A stretch of 64,000 bases of DNA from Heptranchias perlo (lineage: Eukaryota): contig NC_090328.1 in the NCBI RefSeq assembly GCF_035084215.1, positions 21,638,001-21,702,000 on the forward strand, in the 5' to 3' direction. A program made the translations under genes and the position numbers. Shown here in pieces: positions 691 through 61,071 of the stretch. Below the pieces are notes generated by a model that did not search any database, was not told the DNA's origin, and saw nothing but the letters and a program-made list of their open reading frames with translations. Numbering within the stretch: position 1 is the first letter of the stretch; each line of letters opens with the position of its first letter.

Positions 691-1664
691 AAATTAAAAT
701 TCTGAGGTTCCTTCACCCAAGACATGAGACTGTCTACTCTCTTTACAGATACTGACACTAACTGCTGTTTATTTCCAGCATTTTCTGTGTTTGTTAGGAT
801 AAGATTTTGTTATCTGTTAATAGTTTGTAAGAAAGGGAATCACTGAACAAACAAGCTTCTGAAGAAAACTGCACAATTATGAAAGGCTTTGGAAATATCA
901 GACTACATTTTTCCATACAGACTACCCTCTCTGTTTTCTTTTACTACTATCGACTACTCCACACAATATAATTTCACTCTCAAGATAAAAGAATAAACTC
1001 AAGTGCTGGAAATACATGGCAGTATATCACCATCTGAAAAAATAAAAAAGTAGGTTAACATTTCGAGCAGGGACTCTTCATCAAAACACTTTCTGTTTCA
1101 AACAAACACCAAACACTTCAGATCAGACATGGCTTGGTTAGATCCAGAGTAGAAGACTTTCCACCCTCTCCCTCGGTAAAGTCCCTCAGCCAAAACTCAA
1201 GAGTTGCATCTCTTACTGCACTATTGTGGCATTTTCCATTTCTCCCACCAGCTACCTTGTGAGCTTTACCAGTGGCAATCTTGGTGCTGTGTGCCTACCA
1301 GGTACTGGATTGAGATTAGCCAAAGTCATTTATCATAGGACTCTAACAGCTAACAGATAGAGGGGCAGATGTTGACTTTGTGCGATACTGTAAAACAGGT
1401 GATAGTGCGTTGGCAGCCTGTTTTACGTCTCCCCTGATTTTTATTTCCAAATGGGGAGAGATGTGAAACGGGTTTGCCAACTCGTCATCACACGTTTTGC
1501 ACTATCGCGGAAAGTCAGGATCTACCTCAGAGACTTTCATCCAATCAGACCAGGCTGAATTCAGAACCAGGAAACAGGTGAAAGGACAGTGTCCCAGTGG
1601 GCAGCAATTAAGAATTCCAAGCCTCACACAACTGACGAGCATAAACCAGAATTGTAAATGTAGA

Positions 1665-1727
1665 ACAAAAGCAAAATACTGTTGGAAACACTCAGCAGGT
1701 CAGGCATCATTCTAGCATTTTTTATTA
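1665..1727 (-). mobile_element. Internally deleted family B element
   Basis: caaaagcaaaatact...ctcagcaggtcaggca...agcattttttatt matches both ends of the 52903 element; TSD taaatgtaga at 1655-1664 and 1728-1737. Confidence 0.65.
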
Positions 1728-3639
1728 TAAATGTAGAGATGTGAATCAACAGAAACACTCCAATAAACTCCAGTGTAAAAGACATCACAGGTCAACATAC
1801 ATGGCAGACAGCCTTAATTTTCAGGTTAAATTTTTATAAAGAGCAAGGCCAGAAGTTATTGTCATAAATATTCTTAATTATATGAGCTTGGCAACAAAAC
1901 AAAAATCACAGTTTTAAAACAGATCACATTTGAAACGTGACTTTTTCATCAGTACAGTTCTTCAATATAGGTCTACCTTCTGAGAAAAGTTAACAATTGG
2001 GCACGATGGTTTTTTAAAGGATGTTTTAATTTAAGGATTCAATGATGTCAAATGTTTATAAAGTATTTCAGCCTCTGAGAATACTTCAGGATTGACATTT
2101 AGAGAATGGAGTCACCACACTGGCACAATAGTTGGGAGTGAGGCTATTACATCTCTGGCTGTTTCAGACTCATAAGACAGCAGTATGTTTCCGCACTTGG
2201 GGCTGTGTGCTTCCTAATGAGGAGTTTTTCCCATTCTTCATGTGGACAGAACAACCACCATATCCAATTAAAGTCAAAAGCCAGTGTCCGTTGTGGTGTT
2301 TCTTCTTGCAGGTTCCTCTTACAAACATAAATGGGCAGTTTTGCAGGGAGATGATAATTGGGCTCGACACCTGGCCCATGCTGGAGGTCAATTTCTTTTC
2401 ACCCTGCTGTTCCATTCTATTCTTAGTTTGATTAAGGACCAGTTTCAAAGGTTATACCTTGCGGGTTATTAAGGTAGAACCCTTCATAGAAGAGGGAATG
2501 TTGTTATCCAGACTCTAACATCAAGCGATTCTGAGTAACATTCGTTTTTGTATCTGTTTCTGTCGATTTGTAAATGCATCATCTGTAGAACTGGCTTAGA
2601 CATTTTAGGTGAACCATTTAACATAACCTGAAGTAAAAGGGGACAATGTACATTTATGACAGATTATACAGTACCATATTATATCTGTAACACATGTAAT
2701 CCATTAGTTCTGGCGGCTGTACTAAAATAATTGCGTTACACATTAAAATCTCATCTTGCTGAAGAGCCTATATATAGAAAGCACATTAGATTAAAAATAG
2801 CAAGTGATATTTTCTCTTGAATATTTAAGTACTGTCTTTTCTAAAATGTCAACTATTTAAATTTTGATACTTTCTAATTTAAATATTTCTGGGAAACATT
2901 TCTTATCCTTGTGGGTGCAGTGATGACAGTGACACGATAGAGTCTTAATCTGAGGTTTTAGGGGTCAGTTTTAACTACCCCACTTGGCAGAAACCAGGTT
3001 TGGGGGGGGGGGCGGTTAAAATGGAGCCGGGGATTTACCCACCCCTTTCCCATCCCGATCTGGCAGACTGCAATTTTAAATTGTAGGCGACAAGGACAAG
3101 CTAGCAGGGTCCACTTTAAACATGCAGCGTGGGTTCCAATGACGTACACAGCAATTTGGGGACTTCTGATTATCCTCCAGGACGCCCATTCCAATATGGC
3201 TGATAATTGATGTTTCATTATAGGGGGAAGAACCTTCCTTCCCTTTGTGAATGGGGAAAGAAATCCAGAATTGGTTACTAACCCAGTGTTTAGTGATTCT
3301 GTCAGTTTAATCGTGCATGTTAATTCTTGGCATATTTTGAATAATTCTGGAGTAAATTATTCAAATATTCCAAACTTGCATGCACATGCTCCCCTTCTCT
3401 GTATTTATGTCCATTGTGTATGTAGCTTTTTTCCTCCATCTTTATTTCTCTACTATCTGTTTCTGTCTCTGTTCCTTGAGTCACACACACATTCTCACTT
3501 ACTCCCTAACTTTCTCAGCCCTTTCTGCCCCTCTTGATGTGGAGAAGGTGCCACAAATATGAGTTTTGTTTCTTCCTTCTGTGAAATAGACAGCAAATTG
3601 TAATAAATGTAACATTTTTATTGCATTTCTTTATTTCAG

Positions 3640-3882
3640 AATAGCAAATATAAAAATCGAATTGTCAAAGCTGGACTCCGAGGCCTGGCCAGGGATGCTT
3701 GACGTCGAGCGAGACAAGTTGATGCTGATTAACGAGAAAGAAGAACTTCTGAAAGAGCTGCAGTTTGTGACGCTCCGGAAATGCTCTCAGGATGAGCTGG
3801 AGCGGCTGGAAGCAGAGAGGAAGCGATTGGAAGAGGAACTCCATTCTGCTCCAAACACACCCAGTGAAGCACTTGCTGGGAG
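3640..3882 (+). CDS. WWC2: WWC2 internal coding exon (coiled-coil region); upstream exons lie outside the window
   Basis: ttatttcag acceptor and ag|gtctgt donor. Translates [44 protein letters not shown]...ALAG, matching recalled WWC2. Confidence 0.93.
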
Positions 3883-4218
3883 GTCTGTGCGGTGATTTTG
3901 TCCGTGGATTTCACGGGGCCTTTAGGGCAGCATGAGGGCATCATGGTGACTTCATGTCAAACTCTTGATATATTGGAGGGAGGGATGAAGAGAGAGTGTC
4001 GGGGAACAGTCTTCCATTTTCATATTTAGAACATCTTAAATGCAAATGTCAGTGAAGCCAGAAAGCTGTGGGACGGTTATGATGGCATAAATACTGAGAT
4101 GGATTTTTAAAAAATATTCTTTACTACTGCCGCCTTTGTGCTTAGTTTATTTTCTGTGTCTCACAGAAATGCAAATCCCAGTTTACTGAGAGCAATTTAT
4201 AAATACTCTTATTTTCAG

Positions 4219-4308
4219 ACTAAAACTACAAGAGAAGAGAAAGGGCCTCGTGCAGCAGCTTGAAGATGCGACCCAGCTAACCATGTATCTACATTCACAA
4301 CTTAAAAG
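4219..4308 (+). CDS. WWC2: WWC2 coding exon
   Basis: ttttcag acceptor and ag|gtatac donor. (R)LKLQEKRKGLVQQLEDATQLTMYLHSQLK; phase-compatible with neighbouring exons. Confidence 0.92.
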
Positions 4309-4649
4309 GTATACGTGCCTATGGCACTCATGGACCATTCAAACCTTTAATTGCAGTTTATTATAGATTTGTACTGATTAATCAAATAGGAATGATTACA
4401 TCTGTTTTCAAATGTTTTTTTTGTTGATCAGTGGTCCTGTTACAAAGCTGGCATGGATACTGTACCCTTCTGTACACACATGTCAGGCAACCTTCAAACA
4501 CTGTTCTATGTATAGTTGCCGATACACCTTCAGCACTCCTGTTCGCTACCCTGTCAACTGGCGAATAGAATTGTTTAGAATAAAAACAGAACCTGTTTTA
4601 TTCCTGGTTTACTAGCTGAGGAATAAACTGTCTGTAAAGAAAATAAAGA

Positions 4650-5103
4650 ATAACTTGCATTGATATATCGCCTTTCTCAACCTCAGGAATTTACAGCCAA
4701 TGAAGTACTTTTGAAATGTAGTCACTGTTGTTACTCCGTTAAAGGTGCTATATAAATGCAAGTTGTTGTTATAATGTAGGAAATGCGGCAGCCAAATTGC
4801 ACACATCGAGGTCCCACAAACAGCAATGTGATGATGACCAGATAACCTGTTTCAGTGATGTTAGTTGAGGGATAAATGTCGGCAAGGACTCCCCTGCTCT
4901 TCTTCAAAATGAGATCTTTTATGTCCACCTGAGGGAGCAGACAAGGCCTCGGTTTAACGTCTCATCCGAAAGACGATACAGTACCTCCGACAGTGCAGCA
5001 CTCCCTCAGTACTGGAATTGGAGTGTCAGCCTAGAGTGGGACTTGAATCCACAACCTTCTGACTCAGAAGCAAGAATGCTACCACTTAGCCATGGCTGAC
5101 ACC
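4650..5103 (-). mobile_element. tRNA-derived SINE (Deu-domain / SacSINE1-like by recall)
   Basis: Reverse-complement homolog of 60059-60480; tRNA head with A/B boxes; central tctttcggatgagacgttaaaccgagg domain. Confidence 0.8.
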
Positions 5104-5473
5104 AGTAAAATTGAGTTGCTGGCACAGATGTGATATAGATGAAAACTGTAATCCAAAATCAGCTGATGTTCTTCAGTGCGATGTTGGCATGTTACAAAGT
5201 TAGACGTGGGCTTGCCTTTCAACAGCAAGAAACACCTTGCTTTGTGCTTCTACCTGCTCTTTCAATGGATAAAATATTAGATTACTGAAATAATATGCTG
5301 GCATAGGCTGAACACTTGTATAGTTTACCAGAAGCTTTGTCAAGTTGTAAAGAGAAATTTTGAGGGAAGTAATGGGAGACAACCGAAAACATTTGCAAGG
5401 GATGCACAAATTAAACATTTTCCTGAGATATTGGCTTACAATCTCATGAAATTGGAGTAGGCAAAAAAAATTT

Positions 5474-5812
5474 AGAATCAGAATGATACAACACAGAAAG
5501 AGGCCATTCGGCCCATTGTGCTGGTTGAGGTCACAATCAGATCAACCATGATCTTATCAAATGGCAGAGCAGGCTCGAGAGGCCGAATGGCCTACTCCTG
5601 CTCTTAATTCGTATGTTTGTACGTATGTTTGTATGTGCCTGTGCAGGCTCTATGAAAAAGCGATCCAATTAGTCCCATTCCCCTGCTCTTTCCCCATAGC
5701 AGACTATTTTCCCTTCAAGTATTTATCCAATTCTCTTTTGAAAGTTACTATTGAATCTGCTTCCACCACCCTTTCAGGCAGTGCATTCCAGATCATTACA
5801 ACTTGCTGCGTT
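5474..5812 (-). mobile_element. CR1 3'-end fragment containing a second CR1 tail (~5524-5635, + strand)
   Basis: aggccattcggccc...ttccaccaccctttcaggcagtgcattccag, with an internal gaatggcctactcctg plus (gtatgttt)n. Confidence 0.7.
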
Positions 5813-6477
5813 GTCCTGTTTTCTGCTTCATTGAAACTCCAGCTTTCCAGGATGTTCTATAAAATCAAAAGGACATTAAACAAAATCAATTGCCATTGAC
5901 TTCTGTTTATTCTGGGTAAAATCCATCTTGTTCTTGCAGTTTGTGGTCCAGAGACTTTAGTCAGGTTACACTCCCAAGACCCGGGCTGCAGTATAAAAGC
6001 TGCTTTTGAATTAAATTTCAATTTTTAATGCTGTTCTTTAAATGTTTGCTGCCGCATTTGTTACTTTAATTCTCCCCCCTCCCTGCTTCCCCCAATGTTC
6101 ACCCCTTGTTCCTCTCTGGGAATCATTGATTCCTTGCAGAGTACGGTTCTGTCATTCTGGATGCCTTACGGTACCTCTTCATGGATGATTCTCAGCAGGG
6201 AACCAAGCCCAATCCTGTCCTCACTCAAGATCTGTGTGTGCACATGCACGTCCAGCAGGATAGTGATCAGGAATGGAAGCTCTGCCAATTTTCCCCTCTC
6301 TAGAATAGGGACACTGAGGTTAATTGTAAAGCATCTACCACTGCCCTGAATGAGGCAGCCACCTCAACACAGACCTGGGATTGAATCTGCAACCATCCCG
6401 GTTTGTATAGCTTAGCAATCAGTGTAGAACCTTGTTGGGACATCAGGCAGCTAATGCAAAATATGTCTAATTAAAAA

Positions 6478-6760
6478 ATAGAATCATAGCATCGTTACAG
6501 TGCAGAAGGAGGCCATTCAGCCCATACAGCCCGTGCTGGCTCTTTGTAAGAGCTATTCAATTAGTCCCATTCCCCCACTCTTTTCCCCGTAGCCCTGCAA
6601 ATTTTTTCCCTTCAAATATTTATCCAATTTTTTGTAAGCCACAATTGAATCTGCTTCCACCACCCCTTCAGGCAGTGCATTCCAGATCATAACTACTCGC
6701 TGCATAAAAAAGTTTTTCCTCATGTCACCTTTGGTTCTTTTGCCAATCACCTTAAATAAT
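6478..6760 (-). mobile_element. CR1 3'-end fragment
   Basis: RKNFFMQRVVMIWNALPEGVVEADS. Confidence 0.85.
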
Positions 6761-6830
6761 AGACATCGCTTGAGTGAATTCAGAGCTCTCATCTAATTCT
6801 TGGGTTCAGAGGACACTTATTAACAACTTG

Positions 6831-7071
6831 ATGTGGAGATGCCGGTGATGGACTGGGGTTGACAATTGTAAACAATTTTACAACATCAAGTTATAGTCCA
6901 GCAATTTTATTTTAAATTCACAAGCTTTCGGAGGCTTCCTCCTTCGTCAGGTGAACGATGTGAACGATTTTTCACATCGTTCACCTGACGAAGGAGGAAG
7001 CCTCCGAAAGCTTGTGAATTTAAAATAAAATTGCTGGACTATAACTTGGTGTTGTAAAATTGTTTACAATT
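6831..7071 (-). mobile_element. Penelope-like-derived palindromic insertion (family A), hammerhead motif in each arm
   Basis: 101-bp arms 6864-6964 and 6971-7071 with 1 mismatch; 33-nt unpaired tail; TSD ttattaacaacttg at 6817-6830 and 7070-7083. Confidence 0.85.
6980..7018 (+). ncRNA. Minimal type I hammerhead ribozyme motif (mirror copy on - strand at 6917-6955)
   Basis: ttcac CTGACGA a ggagg-aag-cctcc GAA AGCT T gtgaa: stem I, core, stem II and palindromic stem III. Confidence 0.75.
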
Positions 7072-8149
7072 ATTAACAACTTGAGTTTTGCTTTCCATGT
7101 CTCTGATGCCTTTGATCAGGTTGCACTCCTGTAGTCACTCCCAGGTGTCCATTCACACCCCAGCGTGGTACCAGATTTCTGAAAGAATTTGACAGCAGTG
7201 TGACTCTCGCTGCTCCTCTCTCTCTCTCAGTGGCTTTTGTGCGTATATATACCATAAATCAGACACCTTTGGATGCTTTGCAGCGAGAGCACCAGGCTCA
7301 CAGCCCACTGTGTGAAACTGAAGAGCCATGGGCTGCAACCTTTCATGCACAGCAGCTGGACATGAAATTGGTAACTTCATCAAAATGCTGTCTGCCTTTG
7401 TGTTAACGAATCCAAAGAGCTAAATAGTCAAATTAATGCTGGGGAAGGAAGCAGTTTGCAAGGCTGTAACAGCCCTGTGTTATTAACACTTCAACCCCTG
7501 CTAATCGGCCTTCACAGTGGGCGGACCGTCACATCAGGTGAGAAGTAATTCACATGAGAGAGTGAGGACTGCTAAAGAGCCCCCGACACTTGTAATAATT
7601 TCCATTAAAACAAAGAGGAAATTTTTTTATTCTATTTGCTATTTCTAGCAAAATCGTGGACCCAATTTTGCCATGAAAAGCGAATCAAGGAAATCACCCC
7701 CACCTTATAAAGCTCTCCTGATGTGGTAGCGTGGTTTCGTACTGAGCACATCAGATCCCAAAGGTCCCGCATAGTGTTCTCTGAGCTCTGTCAGGTTGCT
7801 GGTCCCTATCATTCCCCTGGCAGAACTAATATTAGGGATGGGCAATAAATGCTGGTCTTGCCAGCGAAGCCCACATCCCATGGACGAATACAAAAAAAAG
7901 TTGACTGTATTGGCCCCAGTGCATCAAGGCTCAGGAAGGGAAAAAGTAGACAAGAGTCCCACTCCCGATCACAATCTGGTGAATCTTGTTGGAGTGTGTG
8001 TGTGTGTGTGTGTGTGTGTGCACGCGCTCACGCGCATGCCTAGAAGCTTTACAAAGGTACAGGTGGATCAGGTGAGGATTGGATGGGACTCAGCTATGAT
8101 GCCTCCTACAGTTGAATATTATTTACTAAGTTACAATGCACTTTGGGAG

Positions 8150-13590: not shown

Positions 13591-15070
13591 CTTTCTTTCA
13601 GTGTGAGTTCTTTCTTTTAGGAGTAGAGGGTAACCTAGTGAGGGCTAATCTGCCCAAAGATTGTTTTTAAAAGTGAGTCCCACTTACTTTTTTAAAGTTT
13701 GTATCTTTGGTTTATTAAGCAGTTAAAAAGCCTGAATGTGCTCAGTCTCATTTCATGTATTCTATTTGTTTGAATGTTAAAAATGAAATTGTAGTGCCAT
13801 CTCTTGGCTATTGTTAACAGTGCACTGGAACGCAGTTAAAACTAGCTCTGCACATTGGTCAACCAACACAACCACCTTTAGTGATCACTTCCTTTTAACT
13901 TAGATGAAAACCTAATTCCTGGGCGGCTCCACATGGCTCAGTGAATAGCTGAGTCATACAGACAGGAAGGTCCCAGGTTTGATCCCTGGACTGTAAATCG
14001 ACTGATGTCATCCAGAATAGTGTTACAGTCCCTACCGCTCACACCATTCCTGGTTACACCAGACAGCACCCTATATCGGGCAAATGGATTTGTCGTTAAC
14101 ATAGGCATCAATTACAAAGGCGCTGCTTAAACCGTATTAAGCGCAGCGGCTATTTTGGGCAGTTCAATAAGTACTTACCCTGTACTGACCGATTTAAAAG
14201 CTTGGTGATTTCAGGCAAACTCAAGTCTTCAATCAGCTGTTTGCATTGTTAACAATTACGTGTAAGAAAATACATCAAGTTCCACACGTCCCAGTTTGTC
14301 AGTGGAGAATTCCGGCAGCTTCAGGAGTTATTTCTTTGCATTGGTATTACCGCCCGCCATGTATAGCGGGCAAATCACGTTCGCACGAACATGCCCGCTA
14401 TATGCAGTGGGGACTGCATGGCGATACAGTTGGCATCAGCATCCCCAGGTTAGATGGTGAAAAGAATTGGCCACGGTTCCCATTCCTGATTACTATCCAG
14501 TACCCCTCCCTTCTCCAATGGAGGTACATGTATATGAATGTTGCCTGAGGACAGATCAGGGTTCATTTATGCCAAATGGTCACTTGGATGAGGCACCAAT
14601 GGGCATTATGCATCCCATGTACCCACACCCCAGCAAACACTCAACATCATCTGGAGTGGAGGAGAGAGAATTGGTAGAAAAAAGAAAACCCATTTGCTAA
14701 CTGATCCCTACATGAATAACCCTCACTGTCCAGGCGGGAATGCCCTTTGATATGTCGCTGTAGAGCACAGTCACTTTCCAAGGAGGGTTAAGCATTTCAG
14801 AGAAATCAAGTTTGCAAAATTTAAATTGGAACTTTTAATTCATTAATGATAATGATTAAAAAGTATAAATATAATTCCAAATGAAACTTAGAAAGTGAAA
14901 GAAATAGAAACAAAACTAGAAATGGAAAAAGAAAAATCAGAAAGTGAAATAAAAGAAAAAAAAGTTGCTCAGAACACTTCATGTACAATGTACTACTTTG
15001 AAGTGCAGTGACTGTTATTATGTAAGGAGTCGTACAACACCAGGTTATAGTCCAACAGCTTTATTTGAAA

Positions 15071-15107
15071 TCACAAGCTTTCGGAGCTTTGCTCCTTCGT
15101 CAGGTGA
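15071..15107 (-). ncRNA. Minimal hammerhead ribozyme motif in a single-arm Penelope-like remnant (15021-15193)
   Basis: Reverse complement reads tcac CTGACGA a ggagc-aaa-gctcc GAA AGCT T gtga. Confidence 0.7.
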
Positions 15108-15753
15108 AGTGAAGAGTTACATAAAGGAACAGCATATATAGTCAGTATGCTGTGCCTTTATGTATAATAAAGGCACAGCATACTGACTATATAGGCAGAT
15201 GTACCCCTAGATCAGACGTACCACACTGGAGTGTCAGGCTAGACTATGACCTCAAACTCCTGTGGGACTCAGACTCACAACTTTCTGACACAGCTGTGTC
15301 TTAAAATATTAAAATAGAAAAGGATAGGAAAATGTTGGGGTGGGGAATCAAATTACTAATCAAAGAGGCCAAAAATCCACCTGGACCAGGAGCGTACAGA
15401 TGAAGACCATGGGGTAGAATTTCCATCCGGCTTCTCTAATCTCCTGCCGTAACTTCGGTGTAAAATCAGATTAGTTTTATATACTTACTAGTCCTGGGCC
15501 AGAAACCATTAAACAGCAGAAATAAAAAGGGGAAAAAAATTACGGATGCTGTAAATTTGAAATAAAATCAGATCTATCAGCATCTGTAAAGAGAAGAGAC
15601 AAGTTAACATTTTGAGTATATACCCTTTATCAGAACCCACTGAACAGCATTTTGATGTCAGACACTATTGCTTCCCACTGCCCATCATTGCACTTGTGTG
15701 GATTAGGTGGGGAGGGTTACCTGAATTGAGATTGATCTGAAGGGTAGAGTTGA

Positions 15754-16723
15754 CATAAGAACATCAGAAATAGGAGCAGGAGTAGGCCATACGGCCCCTC
15801 GAGTCTGCTCCACCATTCAGTAAGATCATGGCTAATCTTCAACCTCAACTCCACTTTCCCGCCCAATCCACATATCCCTTGATTCCCCTAGAGTCCAAAA
15901 ATCTATTGATCTCAGTCTTGAATAAACTCAATGACTCAGCATCCACAGCCCTCTGGGATAGAGAATTCCAAAGACTCAACCCTATGAGTGAAGAAATTTC
16001 TCCTTATGTTTCAATGAGATCATCTCTCATTCTTCCAAACTCCAGAGAGTATAGGCCCATTCGACTTAATCGCTCCTCATAGGACAACCCTCTCATCCCA
16101 GGAATCAATCTAGTGAACCTTTGTTGCACTGTCTCTAAGGCAAGTATATTCCTCCTTAGGTAAGGAGACCAAAACTGTACACAGTACTCAAGGTGTGGTT
16201 TCACCAAAGCCCTGTACAATTGCAGCAAGATCTCCTTACTCTTGTACTCCAACCCCCTTGCAATAAAGGCCAACGTACCATTTGCCTTCCTGTACATGCT
16301 GTACCTCCATGTTGACTTTCTGTGTTTCGTGTACAAAGACACCCAAATCCCTCTGAACTTCAACATTTAACAGTTTCTCACCATTTAAAAAAATAGTCTG
16401 TTTTTCTATTCTTCCTACCAAAGTGAATAACCTCACATTTCCCCACATTATACTCCATCTGCCACCCTCTTACCCACTCACTTAACTTGTTTATATCCCT
16501 TTGCAGACTCTTTGCGTCCTCCTGACAGCTTACTTTCCCACCTAGCTTTGTATCATCAGCAAACTTGGATACACTACACTTGGTCCCTTCATCCAAGTCA
16601 TTAATATAGATTGTAAATAGCTGAGACCCAAACTCTGATCCTTGCGGCACCCCACAAGTTACTGCCTGCCAACCTGAAAATGACCCGTTTATTCCTACTC
16701 TCTGTTTTCTGTCTGTTAACCAA
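15754..16723 (-). mobile_element. CR1 LINE 3' part (RT C-terminus and 3'UTR), interrupted; resumes at ~18177-18246
   Basis: VPQGS, SKFADDTKL and HLEYCVQFWSP motifs; frameshifted; same family as 61072-63137. Confidence 0.92.
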
Positions 16724-17885
16724 ACCAAGAAGATAGATGAGGGCTGTGCAGTAGACGTGGTCTACATGGACTTCAGCAAAGCCTTTGACAAGGTACCGCA
16801 TGGTAGGTTGTTACATAAGGTTAAATCTCATGGGATCCAAGGTGAGGTAGCCAATTGGATACAAAATTGGCTTGACGGCAGAAGACAGAGGGTGGGTGCA
16901 GAGGGTTGTTTTTCAAACTGGATGCCTGTGTCCAGCGGTGTGCCTCAGGGATCGGTGCTGGGTCCGCTGTTATTTGTTATTTATATTAATGATTTGGATG
17001 AGAATTTAGGAGGCATGGTTGTAAGTTTGCAGATGACACCAAGATTGGTGGCATTGTGGACAGTGAAGAAGGTTATCTAGGATTGCAACGGGATCTTGAT
17101 AAATTGGGCCAGTGGGCCGATGAATGGCAGATGGAGTTTAATTTAGATAAATGTGAGGTGATGCATTTTGGTAGATCAAATCGGGCCAGGACCTACTCCG
17201 TTAATGGTAGGGCGTTGGGGAGAGTTATCGAACAAAGAGATCTAGGAGTACAGGTTCATAGCTCCTTGAAAGTGGAGTCACAGGTGGATAGGGTGGTGAA
17301 GAAGGCATTCAGCATGCTTGGTTTCATTGGTCAGAACATTGAATGCAGGAGTTGGGATGTCTTGTTGAAGTTGTACAGGGCATTGGTGAGGCCACACTTG
17401 GAATACTGTGTACAGTTCTGGTCACCCTATTATAGAAAGGATATTATTAAACTAGAAAGAGTGCAGAAAAGATTTACTAGGATGCTACCGGGACTTGATC
17501 GTTTGACTTATAGGGAGAGGTTGGATAGACTGGGACTTTTTTCCCTGGAGAGTAGGAGGTTAAGGGGTGATCTTATAGAGGTCTATAAAATAATGAGGGG
17601 CATAGATAAGGTAGATAGTCAAAATCTTTTCCCAAAGGTAGGGGAGTCTATAACGAGGGGGCATAGATTTAAGGTGAGAGGGGAGAGATACAAAAGGGTC
17701 CAGAGGGGCAATTTTTTCACTCAAAGGGTGGTGAGTGTCTGGAACGAGCTGCCAGAGGCAGTAGTAGAGGCGGGTACAATTTTGTCTTTTAAAAAGCATG
17801 TGGACAGTTACATGGGTAAGATGGGTATAGAGGGATATGGGCCAAGTGCAGGCAACTGGGACTAGCTTAGTGGTATAAACTGGGC

Positions 17886-18105
17886 ATGATGTGGAGATGC
17901 CGGTGATGGACTGGGGTTGACAATTGTAAACAATTTTACAACACCAAGTTATAGTCCAGCAATTTTATTTTAAATTCACAAGCTTTCGGAGATTTTCTCC
18001 TTCCTCAGGCAAACATTTGCCTGAGGAAGGAGAAAATCTCCGAAAGCTTGTGAATTTAAAATAAAATTGCTGGACTATAACTTGGTGTTGTAAAATTGTT
18101 TACAA
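17886..18105 (-). mobile_element. Penelope-like-derived palindromic insertion (family A) inside the 3'UTR of a CR1
   Basis: 90-bp arms 17924-18013 and 18016-18105; TSD gtataaactgggc at 17873-17885 and 18106-18118. Confidence 0.85.
18016..18054 (+). ncRNA. Minimal hammerhead ribozyme motif, variant (mirror copy on - strand at 17975-18013)
   Basis: tttgc CTGAGGA a ggaga-aaa-tctcc GAA AGCT T gtgaa; compensatory stem II change and G-U pairs in stem I. Confidence 0.7.
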
Positions 18106-18692
18106 GTATAAACTGGGCGACATGGACATGTTGGGCCGAAGGGCCTGTTTCCATGTTGTAACTTCTATGATTCTATACCCATGCTAATATATTACCCCCA
18201 ACCCCATGAACCTTATCTTGTGTAACAGCCTTTTGTGTGGCACCTTCCTTGACTTCAATTTGGAAGTACCTTGAGACTCATGAATATGATTTCAATTGCT
18301 CCACATGGAGGCTTTGGCAAGTTGTAAAATTGGATTCAATATGTCTGGTCATTTGTGGTCTGGCACCATGAAAAATGACCATGAAATCTGACTAGTTGTC
18401 ATAAAAACCGAACTGATTCATTAAGATCCTTCAGGGAGGGGAATGTGTCACCCCTGGTATGCCTTAGACGTGACTCCAGTCCCATACTACATAGTTCACT
18501 CCTAATGTCTGCTGAAGTGGCCTAGCAAGTCACTCAGTTGTATAAACAAAAGGCCACTACCACTTTCTCAGGACAATTTGTGATAGGCAATAAATTAATG
18601 CAACCTTACCAGCATCACCCACATCCTGAAAACACAAAGTACATTTTTTAAAATGACCTGACATTGTTTTTTTAAAATTGACTAATAACTTT

Positions 18693-19267
18693 CATAGGAA
18701 CATAGGAACAGGAGTAGGCCATTCAGCCCCTCGTGCCTGCTCCGCCATTTGATAAGAGCATGGCTGATCTGTGATCTAGCTCCATATACCTGCCTTTGGC
18801 CCATATCCCTTAATACCTTTGGTTGCCAAAAAGCTATCTATCTCATATTTAAATTTAGCAATTGAGCTAGTATTAATTGCCATTTGCGGAAGAGAGTTCC
18901 AAACTTCTACCACCCTTTGTGTGTAGAAATGTTTTCTAATCTCACTCCTGAAAGTTCTGGCTCTAATTTTTAGACTGTGTCCCCTACTCCTAGAATCCCC
19001 AACCAGAGGAAATAGTTTCTCTCTATCCACCCTATCTGTTCCCCTTAATATCTTATAAACTTCGATCAGATCACCCCTTAACCTTCGAAACTCTAGAGAA
19101 TACAACCCCAATTTGTGTAATCTCTCCTCGTAACTTAACCCTTGAAGTCCGGGTATCATTTTAGTAAATTTACGCTGCACTCCCTCCAAGGCCAGTATGT
19201 CCTTCCGAAGGTGCGGTGCCCAGAACTGCTCACAGTACTCCAGGTGTGGTCTAACCAGGGTTTTGTA
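18693..19267 (-). mobile_element. Young CR1 LINE 3' fragment
   Basis: ORF ...RFTKMIPGLQGLSYEERLHKLGLYSLEFRRLRGDL; (gttcctat)n tail; nearly identical to the 24800 and 43415 copies. Confidence 0.93.
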
Positions 19268-24799: not shown

Positions 24800-26385
24800 A
24801 ATGCCGGAAATCCCAAGAAAACTAATATTAAATCGGGGACAGGGACTCGATAAAATTAAGATAAGATTGCCGATGCCCTAACTATAATCTTTCAAAGTTC
24901 TCTAGATTCAAGAACTGTCCCTCTAGATTGGAAAATTGCACATGTCACTCCACTTTTTAAGAAAGGAGAGAGAGGGAAACCGGGGAATTGTAGACCAGTT
25001 AGCCTAACATCTGTTGTGGGGAAATTGCTGGAGTCTATAATTAAGGATAGGGTGACTGAACACCTCGAGAATTTTCAGTTAATCAGGGAGAGCCAGCATG
25101 GATTTGTGAAAGGTAGGTCGTGCCTGACAAACCTAATTGAATTTTTTGAAGAGGTGACTAAAGTAGTGGACAGGGGAATGTCAATGGATGTTATTTATAT
25201 GGACTTCCAGAGGCATTTGATAAGGTCCCACATAAGAGACTGTTAGCTAAGTTAGAAGCCCATGGAATTGAGGGAAAAGTACAGACTTGGTTAGGAAATT
25301 GGCTGAGCGAAAGGCGACAGAGAGTAGGGATAATGGGTAAGTATTCACATTGGCAGGATGTGACTAGTGGAGTCCCGCAGGGATCTGTCTTGGGGCCTTA
25401 ATTATTCACAATATTTATTAACGACTTAGATGAAGGCATAGAAAGACTCATATCTAAGTTTGCCGATGACACAAAGATTGGTGGCATTGTAAGCAGTGTA
25501 GATGAAAACATAAAATTACAAAGGGATATTGATAGATTAGGTGAATGGGCAAAACTGTGGCAAATGGAATTCAATGTAGACAAATGTGAGGTCACCCACT
25601 TTGGATCAAAAAAGGATAGAACAGGGTACTTTCTAAATGGTAAAAAGTTTAAAAACTGGGATGTCCAAAGGGACTTAGGGGTTCAGGTACGTAGATCATT
25701 GAAGTGTCATGAACAGGTGCAGCAAATAATCAATAAGGCTAATGGAATGCTGGCCTTTATATCTAGAGGACTGGGGTACAAGGGGGCAGAAGTTATGCTG
25801 CAGCTATACAAAACCCTGGTTAGACTGCACCTGGAGTACTGTGAGCAGTTCTGGGCACCGCACCGTCGGTAGGGCATATTGGCCTTGGAGGGAGTGCAGC
25901 GTAGGTTTACTAGAATGATACCCGGACTTCAAGGGTTAAGTTACGAGGAGAGATTACACAAATTGGGGTTGTATTCTCTAGAGTTTCGAAGGTTAAGGGG
26001 TGATCTGGTCGAAGTTTGTAATACATTAAGGGGAACAGATAGGGTGGATAGAGAGAAACTATTTCCGCTGGTTGGGGATTCTAGGAGTAGGGGGCACAGT
26101 CTAAAAATTAGAGCCAGACCTTTCAGGAGTGAGATTAGAAAACATTTCTATACACAAAGGGTGGTAGAAGTTTGGAACTCTCTTCCGCAAACGGCAATTG
26201 ATACTAGCTCAATTGCTAAATTTAAATCTGAGATCGATAGCTTTTTGGCAACCAAAGGTATTAAGGGATATGGGCCAAAGGCAGGTATATGGAGTTAGAT
26301 CACAGATCAGCCATGATCTTATCAAATGGCGGAGCAGGCACGATGGGCTGAATGGCCTACTCCTGTTCCTATGTTCCTATGTTCC
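24800..26385 (+). mobile_element. Young 5'-truncated CR1 LINE (RT domain)
   Basis: QHGFVKGRSCLTNL, YMDFQ, KFADDTK; tail gttcctatgttcctatgttcc. Confidence 0.95.
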
Positions 26386-39959: not shown

Positions 39960-40004
39960 GTATGAATTCAGCAATATTTAAGGTTCACAGGTCTAAGAAA
40001 ATAT

Positions 40005-40243
40005 AATTGTAAACAATTTTACAACACCAAGTTATAGTCCAGCAATTTTATTTTAAATTCACAAGCTTTCGGAGGCTTCCTCCTTCCTCAGGTGAACGAA
40101 AAAAAAACTTTTTTTTCGTTCACCTGAGGAAGGAGGAAGCCTCCGAAAGCTTGTGAATTTAAAATAAAATTGCTGGACTATAACTTGGTGTTGTAAAATT
40201 GTTTACAATTGTCAACCCCAGTCCATCACCAGCATCTCCACAT
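40005..40243 (+). mobile_element. Penelope-like-derived palindromic insertion (family A), opposite orientation
   Basis: 102-bp arms 40005-40106 and 40109-40210; tail ends ...catctccacat; TSD taagaaaatata at 39994-40005 and 40244-40255. Confidence 0.85.
40119..40157 (+). ncRNA. Minimal hammerhead ribozyme motif (mirror copy on - strand in the left arm)
   Basis: ttcac CTGAGGA a ggagg-aag-cctcc GAA AGCT T gtgaa. Confidence 0.75.
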
Positions 40244-40545
40244 TAAGAAAATATACTGTGATGACCTGTTATCTTTTTTGCCTCTACCTTGACACCCAGC
40301 ACCGAATCTAGCTGCCTGGTACCGACTCTGATCATGTTTATTAAAATGGGACGATAAAATCCTTTAGGCACCTCTGACAAGACGTTCAACAACATGATAT
40401 CTACAAAGTGCAATACCAGCATCTAGTGACAGAAGATCAGTATTGCAACCGTATGGTGTCTGGGTTTGCAATATCCTTTGTAATAGTAGGAACCAAGGGG
40501 TTAGTGACACTGTAATAGTTTGAAGTCCCAAACGGAGATCAGTTC

Positions 40546-43414: not shown

Positions 43415-46238
43415 ATAGGAACATAGGAACAGGAGTAGGCCATTCAGCCCCTCGTGCCTGCTCCGCCATTTGATAAGATCATGGCTGATCTGTGATCTAG
43501 CTCCATATACCTGCCTTTGGCCCTTATCCCTTAATACCTTTGGTTGCCAAAAAGCTATCTATCTCAGATTTTAATTTAGCAATTTAGTATCAATTGTCAT
43601 TTGCGGAAGAGAGTTCCAAACTTCTACCACCCTTTGTGTGTAGAAATGTTTTCTAATCTCACTCCTGAAAGGTCTGGCTCTAATTTTTAGACTGTGCCCC
43701 CTACTCCTAGAATCCCCGACCAGCGGAAATAGTTTCTCTCTATCCACCCTATCTGTTCCCCTTAATATCTTATAAACTTCGATCAGATCACTCCTTAACC
43801 TTCTAAACTCTAGAGAATACAACCCCAATTTGTGTAATCTCTCCTCGTAACTTAATCCTTGAAGTCCGGGTATCATTCTAGTAAACCTATGCTGCACTCC
43901 CTCCAAGGCCAATATGTCCTTCCGAAGGAGCGGTGCCCAGAACTGCTCACATTACTCCAGGTGCAGTCTAACCAGGGTTTTGAATAGCTGCAGCATAACT
44001 TCTGCCCCCTCGTACTCTAGTCCTCGAGATATAAAGGCCAGCATTCCATTAGCCTTATTGATTATTTGCTGCACCTGTTCATGACACTTCAATGATCTCT
44101 GTACCTGAACCCCTAGGTCCCTTTGGACATCCACTGTTTTTAACTTTTTACCATTTAGAAAGTACCCTGTTCTATCCTTTTTCGATCCAAAGTGGATGAC
44201 CTCACATTTGTCTACATTGAATTCCATTTGCCACAGTTTTGCCCATTCACCTAATCTATCAATATCGCTTTGTAATTTTACGTTTTCATCTACACTGCTT
44301 ACAATGCCACCAATCTTTGTGTCATCGGCAAACTTAGATATGAGACTTTCTTTGCCTTCATCTAAGTCATGAAAAAAAATTGTGAATAATTGAGGCCCCA
44401 AGACAGATCCCTGAGGTACTCCACTAGTCACATCCTGCCAATGTGAGTACCTACCCATTATCCCTACACTCTGTCGCCTTTTGCTCAGCCAATTTCCTAA
44501 CCAAGTCCGTACTTTTCCCTCGATTCCATGGGCTTCTATCTTAGCTAACAGTCTCTTATGTGGGACCTTATCAAATGCCTTCTGGAAGTCCATATAAATA
44601 ACATCCATTGACACTCCCCTGTCCACTACTTTAGTTACCTCTTCAAAAAAATTCAATCAGGTTTGTCAGGCACGACCTACCTTTCACAAATCCATGCTGG
44701 CTCTCTCTGATTAACTGAAAATTCTCGAGGTGTTCAGTCACCCTATCCTTAATTATAGACTCCAGCATTTTCCCCACAACAGATGTTAGGCTAACTGGTC
44801 TACAATTCCCCGGTTTCCCTCTCTCTCCTTTCTTAAAAAGCGGAGTGACATGTGCAATTTTCCAATCTAGAGGGACAGTTCCTGAATCTAGAGAACTTTG
44901 AAAGATTATAGTTAGGGCATCTGCAATCTGCTCACCTACTTCCTTTAAAACCCTGGGATGGAAACCATCTTGTCCTGGGGGTTTGTCACTCTTTAGTGCT
45001 ATTATTTTCTTCAGTCCGTTACTTTACTTATGTTAATTTTATCGAGTCCCTGTCCCCGATTCAATATTAGTTTTCTTGGGATTTCCGGCATGCTATCCTC
45101 TTTTTCATCTGTAAATACTGATGGAAAGTAATCGTTCAACATGTCCCCACTGTCAATGACAATATCCCCACTTTCAGTTTTTAGGGGCCAACACTGCTCC
45201 TGACCACCCTCTTTTTCCGAATATAACTATAAAAGTTGTTCGTATTGGTTTTGATATCCCTTGCAAGTTTCTTTTCATACTCTCTTTTTGTAGCTCATAC
45301 TATCTGTTTTGTGACCCTTTGTTGATCTTTGTATCTTTCCCATTCGCCAGGATCTGTTCCATTTTTTGCCTTTTTGTATGCCCTTTCCTTATGTTTTATA
45401 CTGTCCCTTACCTCTTTAGTTGTCCATGGCTATTTTTTATGGCAAGTAGAGTTCTTGCCCCTCAGGGGTATAAACCGATTCTGTATCATGTTAAATGTTT
45501 CTTTAAACATTTCCCACTGATCATCAGTCGTTTTACCCATTAACAGATTTGCCCAGTTTACTGTGGACAGTCTCTGTCTCATCCCATTGAAGTCGGCCTT
45601 GCCCAAGTCTAGAATCTTAGCAGCTGATTCACTTTTTTCCCTTTCAAACACTCGATCATGTTATGATCACTATTGGATAGATGTTCACGCAGAGTTAAGC
45701 CGTTAACTAAATCTGGTTCATTACTCATTACTAAATCTAGTATGGCTTGCCCCCTTGTTGCCTCTAGGACATACTGCTGTAGAAAACTATCCTGGACACA
45801 CTCAAGAATTCACTACCTTTGTGACAGTTGCTAGTCTGCTTTTCCCAATCTATGTGAAGGATAAAGTCCCCCATTAAGACCACTATGCCTTTCTTACACG
45901 CTTGTCTAATCTCTGCATTTATACAATCTAGCACTTCAGAGCTGCTGCCAGGGGTCCTATACACAATTTCCACTATAGTCTTAAATCCTTTCCTATTTCT
46001 CAATTCAACCCATAAGGTCTCTGTTGGCTGCTTACCTCTCGTTATATCCTCCTTTATCATTGAAGTGATTTCATCTCTAATCACTAAGGCTACTCCTCCC
46101 CCTCTTCCATTTTCCCTATCCCTACTGTAGACCTTATAACCCGGTATATTTAGTTCCCAATCCTGACCATCCTGCAGCCATGTCTCAGTAATAGCTACCA
46201 TGTCATACCCTCCAATTTGAATTTGAACCTGTAGTTCA
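43415..46238 (-). mobile_element. Young CR1 LINE, ~2.8 kb, APE endonuclease + RT, disrupted
   Basis: VAITETWL...IPGY...GGGVAL...MGDF (endonuclease) and a 234-aa RT segment with FADD. Confidence 0.96.
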
Positions 46239-52902: not shown

Positions 52903-53119
52903 AAATCAAAAGCAAAATATTGTGGATGCTGGAAATCTGAAATAAAAACTGAAAATGCTGGTAAAGCTCAGCAAGTCAGGCAGCATCTGTGGAGAAAGAA
53001 ACAATGTTAACGTTTCAGGTCGAAGACCTTTGACGAAAGGTCTACGACCTGAAACGTTAACTCTTTCTCCACCGATGCTGCCTGACTTGCTGAGCTTTTC
53101 CAGCATTTTCTGTTTTTAT
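52903..53119 (-). mobile_element. Palindromic Penelope-like-derived insertion (family B) with truncated hammerhead core
   Basis: Imperfect arms 52941-53031 and 53036-53120; tgacga a aggtc-tac-gacct GAA ACGT T at 53031-53058; TSD taaactcatgg at 52892-52902 and 53120-53130. Confidence 0.8.
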
Positions 53120-55904: not shown

Positions 55905-56930
55905 CTCCCTGCAGTTCCTCCCAGTCCCAGGGGAGGCCACTCCCTGCCTCACGGGGGGCGCTCCCTGCAGTTCCTCTCGGCCCCGCGGGGGGAGGCGCTC
56001 CCTGCAGTTCCTCTCGGCCCCGCGGGGGGAGGCGCTCCCTGCAGTTCCTCTCGGCCCCGCGGGGGGGCTCCCTGCAGTTCCTGTCAGCCCCGCGGGGGGC
56101 GCTCCCTGCAGTTCCTCTCAGAGCCGCTGGGGGCGCTCCCTGCAGTTCCTCTCAGAGCCGCTGGGGGCGCTCCCTGCAGTTCCTGTCAGCCCCGCGGGGG
56201 GCGCTCCCTGCAGTTCCTGTCAGCCCCGCTGGGGGCGCTCCCTGCAGTTCCTCTCAGAGCCGCTGGGGGCGCTCCCTGCAGTTCCTGTCAGCCCCGCGGG
56301 GGGCGCTCCCTGCAGTTCCTCTCGGCCCCGCGGTGGGCGCTCCCTGCAGTTCCCCTCGGCCCCGTGGGAGGCGCTCCCTGCAGTTCCTCTCGGCCCCACG
56401 GGAGGCGCTCTCTGCAGTTCCTCTCAGTCCTGGCGGGAGGCGCTCCCTGCAGTTCCTCTCGGCCCCGCGGGGGGCGCTCTCTGCAGTTCCTCTCGGCCCC
56501 GCGGGAGGCGCTCCCTGCAGTTCCTCTGGGCCCCACGGGAGGCGCTCTCTGCAGTTCCTCTCAGTCCTGGCAGGAGGCGCTCCCTGCAGTTCCTCTCGGC
56601 CCCGCGGGGGGCGCTCCCTGCAGTTCCTCTCGGCCCCGCTGGGGGCGCTCCCTGCAGTTCCTCTCGGCCCCGCGGGGGGCGCTCCCTGCAGTTCCTCTCA
56701 GAGCCTCTGGGGGCGCTCCCTGCAGTTCCTCTCGGCCCCGCGGGGGGAAGGCGCTCCCTGCAGTTCCTCTGAGACCCGCTTGGGGCGCTCCCTGCAGTTC
56801 CTCTCAGAGCCTCTGGGGGCGCTCCCTGCAGTTCCTCCCGGCCCCGCTTGGGGCGCTCCCTGCAGTTCCTCTCAGAGCCCCTGGGGGCGCACCCTGCAGT
56901 TCCTCTCGGCCCCGCGGGGGGCGCTCTCTC
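55905..56930. repeat. GC-rich minisatellite, ~34-bp unit, 29 copies of TGCAGTTCC counted
   Basis: Unit ~ctgcagttcctctcggccccgcggggggcgctcc. TGCAG starts at 56107, 56141, 56175, 56209 and 56243 (period 34). Confidence 0.97.
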
Positions 56931-57420
56931 TATTTCCTGGCCGGATGTTGCCTGGGCTTCCCCCGGCCGCTCGGGTTTTGGGGCAGCGTCGTGTGATGGC
57001 GGCGGACGGGGCGGACGTGGTGTCCGAGTTCCTGCAGCAGAATCGGCGGCTGTCGGATTGGGTGGAGACGCTGAAGGGCGATTGCGAGTCCGAGAAGCAC
57101 TGGAAGGCCCGCCGGGAATTCATCCTCCGCAACATGGAGGAGGAGCAGAAGACGAGCGGCGCGGAGCCGGGCCTCGGCACTGACCGGCTCCTCGCTCTCT
57201 CCATGGTCTGGGCCAACCACGTCTTCCTGGGCTGCCGGTGAGTGAGGGGGGGGGGGGGGGCCCGGGCAGCTGGAGCTGGAGCTGGAGCTGAGCCGCTCAT
57301 CCTCACTCCTCAACCCCTCCATGGTGGAAAAGCCGCTGGGTCAGCTCGGTGCCGGTGTTACTGGGGGCCGTTCATTATCAAACAGGGCTGGTGACAGTCC
57401 AGAGCTCCCGGGGCCCTGCA
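55950..57420. promoter_or_regulatory. CpG island / probable CDKN2AIP promoter; ETS-like CCGGATGT at 56941-56948
   Basis: High GC and CpG density compared with the CpG-poor flanks; spans the ATG exon. Confidence 0.75.
56996..57237 (+). CDS. CDKN2AIP: CDKN2AIP (CARF) coding exon 1, XRN2-binding XTBD domain
   Basis: ATG in gtgATGg context. MAADGADVVSEFLQQNRRLSDWVETLKGDCESEKHWKARREFILRN...LSMVWANHVFLGCR; donor cg|gtgagt; lies in a CpG island; syntenic with WWC2. Confidence 0.92.
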
Positions 57421-60480: not shown

Positions 60481-61071
60481 TTCATTATTTCTTTTGTGTT
60501 GTCTTAATTTATGTTGCTGTCAGTTGACTTTCACCATTAGACAAGCTATTAGCATTATCTGTTCAACTCATTCAATGGAACAGCACAGAGGGGAGCAACA
60601 TGATAAATAGTCTTATTAGTGTTTTAACCAATCTATTCAATGAAATATTTTAAATAATGTTAACTCAAGGCTTTACTTAAACAAGCTGTTTGATATCCAG
60701 TTGTGTCTACGTTGTATTGTTCTAACTCTAAGAGTGGACTTCTTTATACGCACATACTTATGCAGACTTTCTATTTTTATTTATACGTTTTGTAAGAGTT
60801 GTCAGTGATAGGGTAGGGAACAAATTTCCATTTTTGACACTGTGTTGTCATCAAGCTTGTCTAATTCAGGTATGTTGCGGACCAACTGCTGAGCAATGCT
60901 CCCTCTGCTATGTGCAACATCACAAGAATGATTGCTGCTCTTCTACGACCTACTCGTTTCCCACAACAGGCATCTTTGTAGCTGCTTCTCTGTGAGATTG
61001 TCCATGTAGTGAATGCTGAATTGTAGATGATTCAGTTCTATGGATCTGGACCCACTAGGAGCTGAGTTGAA

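What the first reader, a model, noticed from the sequence alone, without database searches (positions are those of the whole stretch)
6817..7083. Family of TSD-flanked ~100-bp palindromic insertions with a hammerhead ribozyme motif in each arm
Seen in sequence: three ~220-240 bp insertions (6831-7071, 17886-18105, 40005-40243). Each has a near-perfect 90-102 bp inverted repeat, a shared unpaired 33-nt tail (gtcaaccccagtccatcaccggcatctccacat) and its own 12-14 bp target-site duplication. Each arm contains stemI-CUGAnGA-A-stemII-GAA-AGCU-U-stemI', so both strands encode a hammerhead motif. Established knowledge: Penelope-like retroelements carry minimal type I hammerheads with a palindromic stem III in their pseudo-LTRs and often insert with inverted ends. 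Inference: this is a recently active, non-coding, ribozyme-bearing mini-retroelement mobilised by a Penelope RT/GIY-YIG enzyme encoded elsewhere. No such ORF is in this window.
Basis: partly seen in the sequence, partly recalled or inferred. Interest (0 to 1): 0.85.

Follow-up and report, generated by a model that had tools for sequence, protein, structure and literature searches.

The report
Palindromic stubs of a Penelope retrotransposon
The three palindromes are short, head-to-head end pieces of a very abundant protein-coding Penelope-like retrotransposon of this genome, a known kind of structure, and their uniform length likely marks where reverse transcription ran off the predicted start of the element's own mRNA, which would make the family a natural record of how these elements insert.

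Summary
In detail: three insertions, each with a 98-107 bp inverted repeat, one 33-nt tail, a net ~12-bp target-site duplication and a minimal type I hammerhead motif in each arm.

They are not a separate non-coding family. The arm plus tail is the pLTR end of an autonomous Penelope-like element (PLE). The tail has 33,559 exact genome matches. Intact 902-aa RT + GIY-YIG ORFs lie on other loci, and copy 2's arm matches one 128/128. The same layout runs up to 2.9 kb. Inverted tail-less pLTR, tail and hammerhead are published PLE hallmarks.

Less ordinary: in two subfamilies the short arms end 29-30 nt after a conserved TATA box (26 of 51; 15 of 36), not at a fixed distance from the hammerhead, and tails end at the ORF's ATG. 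Arms are therefore likely run-off cDNAs of the mRNA 5' leader, primed from both nicked target strands and joined head-to-head. Only 2 of 154 arms end at the hammerhead cut site, and the whole palindrome is predicted to bury the motif. Verdict: new member of a known kind, with a testable mechanistic lead.

The parts
6817..6831 (.). Copy 1 left target-site duplication (15 nt; last 3 nt also match the element's tail end, net 12)
6831..6863 (-). Copy 1 tail: the 33 nt that precede the ORF start region in full elements
6858..6964 (-). Copy 1 tail-bearing arm (pLTR end; subfamily with TATA 46 nt upstream of CUGA); hammerhead motif at 6917-6955
   Evidence: 134 identities, 2 mismatches to natural long copy L139
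6971..7077 (+). Copy 1 tail-less inverted arm; hammerhead motif at 6980-7018
7070..7084 (.). Copy 1 right target-site duplication
17873..17885 (.). Copy 2 left TSD (13 nt, net 12), inside a LINE 3' region whose other copies hold the site once
17886..18013 (-). Copy 2 tail (17889-17921) and tail-bearing arm; hammerhead motif at 17975-18013; 128/128 identical to the pLTR of intact-ORF copy L137
18016..18105 (+). Copy 2 tail-less inverted arm; hammerhead motif at 18016-18054; reaches 10 nt upstream of CUGA, i.e. TATA+30
18106..18118 (.). Copy 2 right TSD
39994..40005 (.). Copy 3 left TSD (12 nt)
40005..40106 (-). Copy 3 tail-less inverted arm; hammerhead motif at 40058-40096
40109..40243 (+). Copy 3 tail-bearing arm (hammerhead motif 40119-40157) and tail (40211-40243); a non-templated T run is mirrored at the centre
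40244..40255 (.). Copy 3 right TSD
15020..15140 (-). Fourth, more diverged tail-less arm of a related subfamily (88% over 73 nt); hammerhead motif 15070-15108; TATATA at about 15140-15135 with an initiator-like TCACTT whose A is 30 nt downstream (counted by hand)

Best explanation
The three palindromes are short, head-to-head, TSD-flanked end pieces of an autonomous Penelope-like retroelement of this genome, likely made anew at each insertion when its RT/GIY-YIG protein primes cDNA from both nicked target strands and copies only the ~130-nt leader of the element's predicted mRNA.

Shown: family identity, intact ORFs, copy number, ~12-bp TSD, tail on one arm, tail ending at the ATG, short arms ending at TATA+29/30.

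Inferred steps:
(1) A pLTR TATA/initiator promoter starts the mRNA 10-17 nt upstream of the hammerhead.
(2) The protein nicks both strands about 12 bp apart.
(3) One 3'-OH primes RT at about the AUG, giving the tailed arm; the other primes about 32 nt upstream, giving the tail-less arm.
(4) On the first pLTR of a transcript both cDNAs run off the RNA 5' end. Priming at a downstream pLTR of a tandem transcript gives the long copies.
(5) The two cDNA 3' ends are joined by microhomology or snap-back and filled in.

The hammerhead is a passenger copied from uncut RNA. The stubs mostly lack the TATA box and ORF and are likely dead on arrival. My odds: identity 0.97, run-off at the start site 0.75, two-strand priming 0.6.
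For: Family link: arms run upstream into RT (RYIDD; RVT_1 E 2.5e-10) and GIY-YIG-type sequence. Four intact 902-aa ORFs at three loci. Copy 2's arm is 128/128 identical to L137. The same layout at 2.9 kb with a TSD occurs at L031.

Architecture in 94 tail-selected copies: 68 have an inverted arm; 53 of 62 outer ends lie 28-37 nt inside the tail end; TSD found in 72 of 94, 40 of them 12 nt. The template match ends 3-6 nt past the tail pattern, on the ATG, in 66 of 94.

Run-off: TATAAAT is kept 36-47 nt upstream of CUGA across subfamilies. With TATA at -46, 26 of 51 short arms end at -16/-17. With TATA at -40, 15 of 36 end at -10. Both equal TATA+29/30. Genome counts fall 6316 to 1842 between -12 and -24, then to 1071 at -46; and 6436 to 5196 between -10 and -14, then to about 4605 at -33.

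Two primings: either arm may be longer (inverted 26, equal 19, tailed 17). Some single insertions with a TSD carry different subfamily alleles in the two arms (L082, L169, L233, L106, L087); 4 of 69 differ at the C/G position N7. PMC11167929 shows both-strand cleavage and extension, two internal RT starts bounding the tail, and uncut RNA as the main substrate. Only 2 of 154 arms end within 2 nt of the hammerhead cut.
Against: No transcription start was measured; the promoter is a sequence inference. In the -40 subfamily the -10 end is itself a near-palindrome, and a second peak of 7 of 36 arms lies at -18 on a perfect palindrome, so local self-pairing also makes peaks. 51 of 87 arms of that subfamily pass the TATA box. 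A third subfamily gave only 3 of 12 short arms at TATA+28-30. Arms are identical in 55 of 66 pairs, against 15-19% for random pairs, and copy 3 mirrors a non-templated T run in both arms; both fit single-strand fold-back equally well. One discordant case (L168) has no clear TSD, and gene conversion could explain discordant arms. D. virilis Penelope has a TATA-less internal promoter (PMC2377424). Pfam GIY-YIG scored below its cut-off on a fragment (18.8 v 22.6 bits) and was not reported on the whole protein. Samples come from the start of one chromosome and include a few duplicated segments.
Confidence: 0.7

Rival explanations
1. Same element and same run-off, but one cDNA folds back at its 3' end and copies itself (self-priming), so the second arm is a DNA copy of the first.
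For: 55 of 66 arm pairs are identical in the diagnostic segment. Centres are often perfect palindromes or hold templated snap-back junk. PMC3846280 reads junction palindromes as self-priming.
Against: It does not easily explain why the tail-less outer end is fixed 28-37 nt inside the tail end (53 of 62), why the tail-less arm is often the longer (26 v 17), or why some insertions carry two subfamily alleles.
Confidence: 0.3
2. One reading: a non-autonomous, ribozyme-bearing mini-retroelement (retrozyme- or SINE-like) that is itself transcribed and re-copied in trans by the PLE enzyme.
For: Short forms outnumber long ones (49 of 94 tailed arms are 115-150 nt). One centre recurs in 9 insertions. 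Non-autonomous PLE derivatives are known (PMC8557442; bioRxiv 10.64898/2026.07.22.740005).
Against: 59 centres among 69 palindromes; the recurring centre is found in both orientations to the tail (4 v 5) and sits on a self-pairing end. Arms carry the same subfamily alleles as coding copies. They lack the TATA box and the ORF start, which was needed for activity in another PLE (PMC11167929). The hammerhead is buried in palindrome RNA. Retrozymes are head-to-tail tandems (PMC7229834).
Confidence: 0.07
3. The length peak comes from RT stalling or template release just after the hammerhead's structure, or from local palindromes, not from the RNA's 5' end.
For: 72 of 154 arms end between 18 nt upstream of CUGA and the CUGA itself. 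Palindrome-centred secondary peaks exist.
Against: The peak shifts from -10 to -16/-17 between subfamilies in step with the TATA box while the hammerhead is nearly the same. It also shows in monomeric copies and in the subfamily without a palindrome there.
Confidence: 0.2
4. A MITE of a DNA transposon, or a miRNA hairpin.
For: Near-perfect inverted repeats; Rfam miRNA models score on them.
Against: The Rfam scores are below their cut-offs. There is an asymmetric tail, 26 of 94 copies are monomers, and the arms are directly continuous with an RT ORF.
Confidence: 0.01

Closest known systems
EN+ Penelope-like elements, Neptune/Nematis type (PMC8557442, passages read)
   Same: One ORF with RT then GIY-YIG; C-x4-C-xx-C linker; heavy 5' truncation; partial tandems; inverted 5'-truncated copy; 30-40 bp tail at one end; hammerhead in the pLTR.
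   Different: Nothing in kind. The passages read do not describe a length peak tied to a TATA box. No tree against named clade references was built.
Adineta vaga Pen2/Pen3 and Drosophila virilis Penelope (PMC3846280, PMC2377424, passages read)
   Same: Inverted pLTRs, 31-34 bp tail, 8-10 bp TSD, palindromes at head-to-head junctions; putative TATA + initiator in A. vaga pLTRs.
   Different: TSD here peaks at 12 bp and copy number is in the tens of thousands. D. virilis has a TATA-less promoter. PMC3846280 proposes self-priming on an antisense template.
PAc, Poseidon of Anolis carolinensis (PMC11167929, parts 1-2 of 4 read)
   Same: Tail bounded by two RT start sites; hammerhead apparently uncut in the inserted copies.
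   Different: PAc starts RT 111-118 nt into its ORF, with the hammerhead overlapping the start codon. Here the hammerhead is about 120 nt upstream of the ATG and the tail ends at the ATG.
Minimal type I hammerheads of metazoan PLEs (PMC4209133, parts 1-2 of 4 read)
   Same: Short helix I, unpaired base before helix II, palindromic helix III/loop 3; pairs of motifs 100-700 bp apart on opposite strands were already noted.
   Different: Helix II is 5 bp here. Cleavage is untested.
Non-LTR retrozymes (PMC7229834 passages; bioRxiv 10.64898/2026.07.22.740005 part 1 of 5 and passages)
   Same: Short, non-coding, type I hammerhead, PLE-related.
   Different: Retrozymes are head-to-tail tandems that yield circular RNA. 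These are head-to-head and dispersed, each with its own junction.
L1 twin priming and retroviral strong-stop DNA (recalled, no call)
   Same: A second target strand priming on the RNA; a short cDNA that runs off the RNA 5' end.
   Different: L1 twin priming inverts a non-overlapping part, whereas here both arms copy the same stretch. Strong-stop DNA is tRNA-primed and is not integrated.

Membership tests
EN+ Penelope-like element | Single ORF with RT and C-terminal GIY-YIG endonuclease linked to the repeat | tested here: met
   902-aa ORFs with ADKGG, RYIDD, VVY..YIG read from the sequence; RVT_1 E 2.5e-10; Pfam GIY-YIG E 0.002, below its cut-off, on a fragment; many homologs carry PF01541
EN+ Penelope-like element | pLTRs from (partial) tandems; inverted 5'-truncated copy | tested here: met
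   Tandem ORFs at L137, pLTR on both sides of the ORF at L136; 68 of 94 copies have an inverted arm
EN+ Penelope-like element | 30-40 bp tail at one end; target-site duplication | tested here: met
   53 of 62 outer ends lie 28-37 nt inside the tail end; TSD in 72 of 94, mode 12; empty LINE sites for copy 2
EN+ Penelope-like element | RT groups with PLE/telomerase RTs in a tree | not tested
   No named PLE references were held; homologs are unnamed RT(+GIY-YIG) proteins of sharks (84-94%), turtles (45-49%) and invertebrates
Neptune clade | CX2-5CxxC linker between RT and EN | tested here: met
   CHGNLCKTC; motif definition from PMC8557442 (shared with Nematis)
Neptune clade | Phylogenetic placement | not testable with these tools
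Minimal type I hammerhead | CUGAnGA / GAAA / UH core with helices I and II and palindromic loop 3 | tested here: met
   Among 27 natural variants 94.4% of cells are paired, 3 pairs change on both sides, and slid controls give 25-53%. The sequences are related and were picked by the core motif, so this is supportive only.
Minimal type I hammerhead | Self-cleavage | not testable with these tools
   Only 2 of 154 genomic arms end at the predicted cut; no Rfam hammerhead match
Non-LTR retrozyme | Head-to-tail tandem units, each with a hammerhead | tested here: not met
   Head-to-head pairs or monomers
Self-propagating non-autonomous family (SINE/MITE-like) | Copies share one fixed structure | tested here: not met
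   59 centres among 69 palindromes; commonest centre in both orientations

The most novel reading that the evidence does not exclude
Most insertions of this PLE are integrated 'strong-stop' products. A dimeric RT-endonuclease primes on both nicked strands, at the AUG and about 32 nt upstream, sometimes on two different RNA molecules, runs off the capped 5' end, and the two cDNAs are joined head-to-head. This would explain in one scheme the PLE tail, the inverted pLTR, the masses of solo hammerheads in animal genomes and the need for tandem source copies, with tens of thousands of genomic junctions as the read-out.
Probability: 0.5. Interest if true: 0.65.

Novelty: new member of a known kind. 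Interest (0 to 1): 0.42.

Why it matters
As an element it is ordinary: a young, abundant PLE family with the published inverted-pLTR, tail and hammerhead layout.

Its value is as a natural experiment on an open question. The steps of PLE integration after RT initiation are unvalidated according to PMC11167929. This family has over 33,000 near-identical ends, several subfamilies with different TATA-to-hammerhead spacing, and intact ORFs. Run-off at the start site and two-strand priming can therefore be tested by counting and in vitro.

It also warns annotators that such ~100-bp perfect hairpins will be miscalled as MITEs, miRNA precursors or independent ribozyme elements.

Tried and rejected
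Rfam scan: no hammerhead model matched; miRNA hits are below cut-off and reflect the hairpin.

PDB sequence search of the ORF: one hit at E 0.65, not used.

Expression: no RNA holder was listed. The four runs laid were contigs of one sample with RNA only guessed, so they say nothing on expression or start sites.

I first took the mirrored TTTG at copy 2's centre as non-templated; it is the subfamily's own sequence. I first saw a pile-up of ends at -127 with one reference; part of it was subfamily divergence, so ends were re-measured against matching natural copies.

Hammerhead cleavage as the source of the 5' ends was rejected (2 of 154 arms). Long arm pairs differ mostly by private changes and did not settle one v two templates. 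Dimer cofolding did not give the helix III duplex as the minimum-energy form, which is uninformative on activity.

The first genome search was biased by the query's T run and was not used for end-position, inversion or TSD statistics; its loci do enter the arm-identity and centre counts.

Literature searches for a run-off or twin-priming account of PLE inversions and for this family in sharks listed none. I saw only listings for most hits, and Repbase, Dfam, subscription papers and supplements were not seen. Earlier-findings look-ups returned nothing.

Full report
OBSERVATION. The three insertions are present as described. Arms of 107, 98 and 102 nt are 97-100% complementary, a 33-nt tail lies on one side, and duplications of 15, 13 and 12 nt flank them. 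In copies 1 and 2 the excess over 12 also matches the element end. Copy 2 interrupts a LINE whose other copies hold the target once. A descriptor scan found 7 hammerhead motifs in 64 kb: the six arms and an older relative at 15070-15108. Rfam gave no hammerhead match. The window holds no PLE ORF.

WHAT IT IS. The genome is 3.25 Gb and holds 33,559 exact matches to the tail, with 0 for the reversed control. Some copies run upstream into RT and GIY-YIG-type coding sequence. Following tail-selected loci gave four intact 902-aa ORFs at L136, L137 and L138: RVT_1 E 2.5e-10, ADKGG, RYIDD, a C-x4-C-xx-C linker and VVY..YIG. Pfam's GIY-YIG model scored only 18.8 bits, under its cut-off. Closest named homologs are uncharacterised shark proteins at 84-94%, then turtles at 45-49% (4220 of 8000 scored candidates at E<=1e-30). 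In full elements the arm and tail lie directly before the ATG and again after the ORF, so they are the pLTR. Copy 2's arm is 128/128 identical to L137; copies 1 and 3 match two other subfamilies.

ARCHITECTURE ACROSS COPIES. The first 100 listed tail matches reduced to 94 distinct contexts, a few of them duplicated segments. 68 have a head-to-head inverted arm and 26 are monomers. 53 of 62 measurable inverted arms start 28-37 nt inside the tail end. A TSD was found in 72, and 40 of these are 12 nt. Tailed arms run from 34 nt to over 3 kb, with 49 of 94 at 115-150 nt. L031 shows the same layout at 2.9 kb. The match to the template ends on the ATG in 66 of 94. The layout is the published PLE one: inverted 5'-truncated copy, 30-40 bp tail and pLTR hammerhead (PMC8557442, passages; PMC3846280, passages). 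Opposite-strand hammerhead pairs were noted in PMC4209133 (parts 1-2 of 4).

NOT A SEPARATE FAMILY. 69 short palindromes show 59 different centres. Copy 2's centre recurs in 9 insertions, but in both orientations to the tail (4 and 5), and it sits on a self-pairing end. This points to formation at each insertion, not copying of a master palindrome.

WHY SO SHORT. TATAAAT is conserved 36-47 nt upstream of CUGA although the spacer differs between subfamilies. With the box at -46, 26 of 51 arms that stop short of it end at -16/-17, on an initiator-like TCATTTT (77 arms examined, 26 pass the box). With the box at -40, 15 of 36 end at -10 (87 examined, 51 pass). Both are TATA+29/30. Genome-wide exact counts agree: 6316, 1842, 1071 at -12, -24, -46; 7030, 6436, 5196 and about 4605 at -7, -10, -14, -33 (the last is not strictly nested, and all include loss by mutation and variants). 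The diverged copy at 15 kb also has TATA and initiator-like motifs 30 nt apart (counted by hand). Against: a second peak at -18 on a perfect palindrome, a near-palindrome at -10, and only 3 of 12 short arms at TATA+28-30 in a third subfamily. No start site was measured. I infer run-off of RT at the mRNA 5' end after internal initiation near the AUG. Internal initiation is shown for another PLE in PMC11167929 (parts 1-2 of 4).

HOW THE PALINDROME FORMS. Read 5' to 3' from each TSD, both arms are antisense to the RNA, as two target-primed cDNAs would be. Either arm may be longer (26, 19 equal, 17). Arms are identical in 55 of 66 pairs against 15-19% between insertions. Yet several TSD-flanked insertions carry different recurrent alleles in the two arms, 4 of 69 at the C/G site N7. 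That favours two primings, usually on RNA of one source, followed by microhomology or snap-back joining. Fold-back of one cDNA plus occasional conversion remains a live rival. Long arm pairs did not decide it.

THE HAMMERHEAD. The motif is of the minimal type I kind. Its helices are kept across 27 natural variants (94.4% of cells paired, 3 pairs with double changes; related sequences picked by the core, so supportive only). Only 2 of 154 arms end at the predicted cut, so templates were mostly uncut. In RNA of a whole palindrome both stems have predicted probability near 0. In single arms helix II forms (0.7-1.0) and helix I varies (0.03-1.0). Activity is untested.

COMPARISON AND VERDICT. It meets the tested hallmarks of an EN+ PLE and has the Neptune/Nematis linker; clade placement was not tested. 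It is not a retrozyme (head-to-tail; PMC7229834 passages; bioRxiv 10.64898/2026.07.22.740005, part 1 of 5 and passages) and not a MITE. D. virilis Penelope differs in having a TATA-less promoter (PMC2377424, passages). My searches listed no paper on this family or on start-site run-off in PLEs, but repeat databases, subscription papers and supplements were not seen. L1 twin priming and strong-stop DNA are recalled comparisons. New member of a known kind; interest 0.42, mainly for the mechanistic read-out.

Noticed in passing
window 15020-15197: Older PLE-subfamily arm with a hammerhead carrying a compensatory helix II pair, followed by a ~60-bp hairpin (15132-15197); no TSD seen by eye.
   Followed up: partly
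window 16984-17885 and 18106-18176: LINE 3' region, 96% identical to a copy in L031, interrupted by copy 2. The PLE insertion is therefore younger than this young LINE copy.
   Followed up: yes
window 55905-57006: GC-rich minisatellite of ~34-nt units (about 29 copies), preceded by a C/T-rich low-complexity tract from about 54950.
   Followed up: no
window 53003-53064: A further ~60-nt hairpin scored by miRNA models below their cut-offs; not matched by the PLE unit.
   Followed up: no
window 24860-26380, 43415-45020, 18693-19267, 15760-16730, 61070-62670: Several dispersed LINE-like repeat fragments, 95-98% alike within one group and 66-90% between groups.
   Followed up: no
L138 (G000:C1:4434500-4444000) 1320-6917: Two intact PLE ORFs lie head-to-head with identical protein sequence; L137 holds a tandem; pLTR hits at G000:C1:4461032, 4464113 and 4467194 are spaced 3081 bp apart, likely a tandem array.
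   Followed up: partly
G000:C2:2.76-5.80 Mb: 17 same-strand matches of one subfamily's pLTR motif at roughly 100-400 kb spacing, and three at 15.4-kb spacing on C1 near 15.34-15.37 Mb: probably copies carried in segmental duplications.
   Followed up: no
L045, L168, L010, L009 centres: Some palindrome centres hold 25-60 nt of foreign or re-copied sequence, as in templated end-joining.
   Followed up: partly
L288, L136: A minority of insertions carry the tail on both arms.
   Followed up: no
P0010: A shark epsin-2 gene model in the database includes a stretch 97% identical to this PLE's RT: either exonisation or a gene-model error.
   Followed up: no
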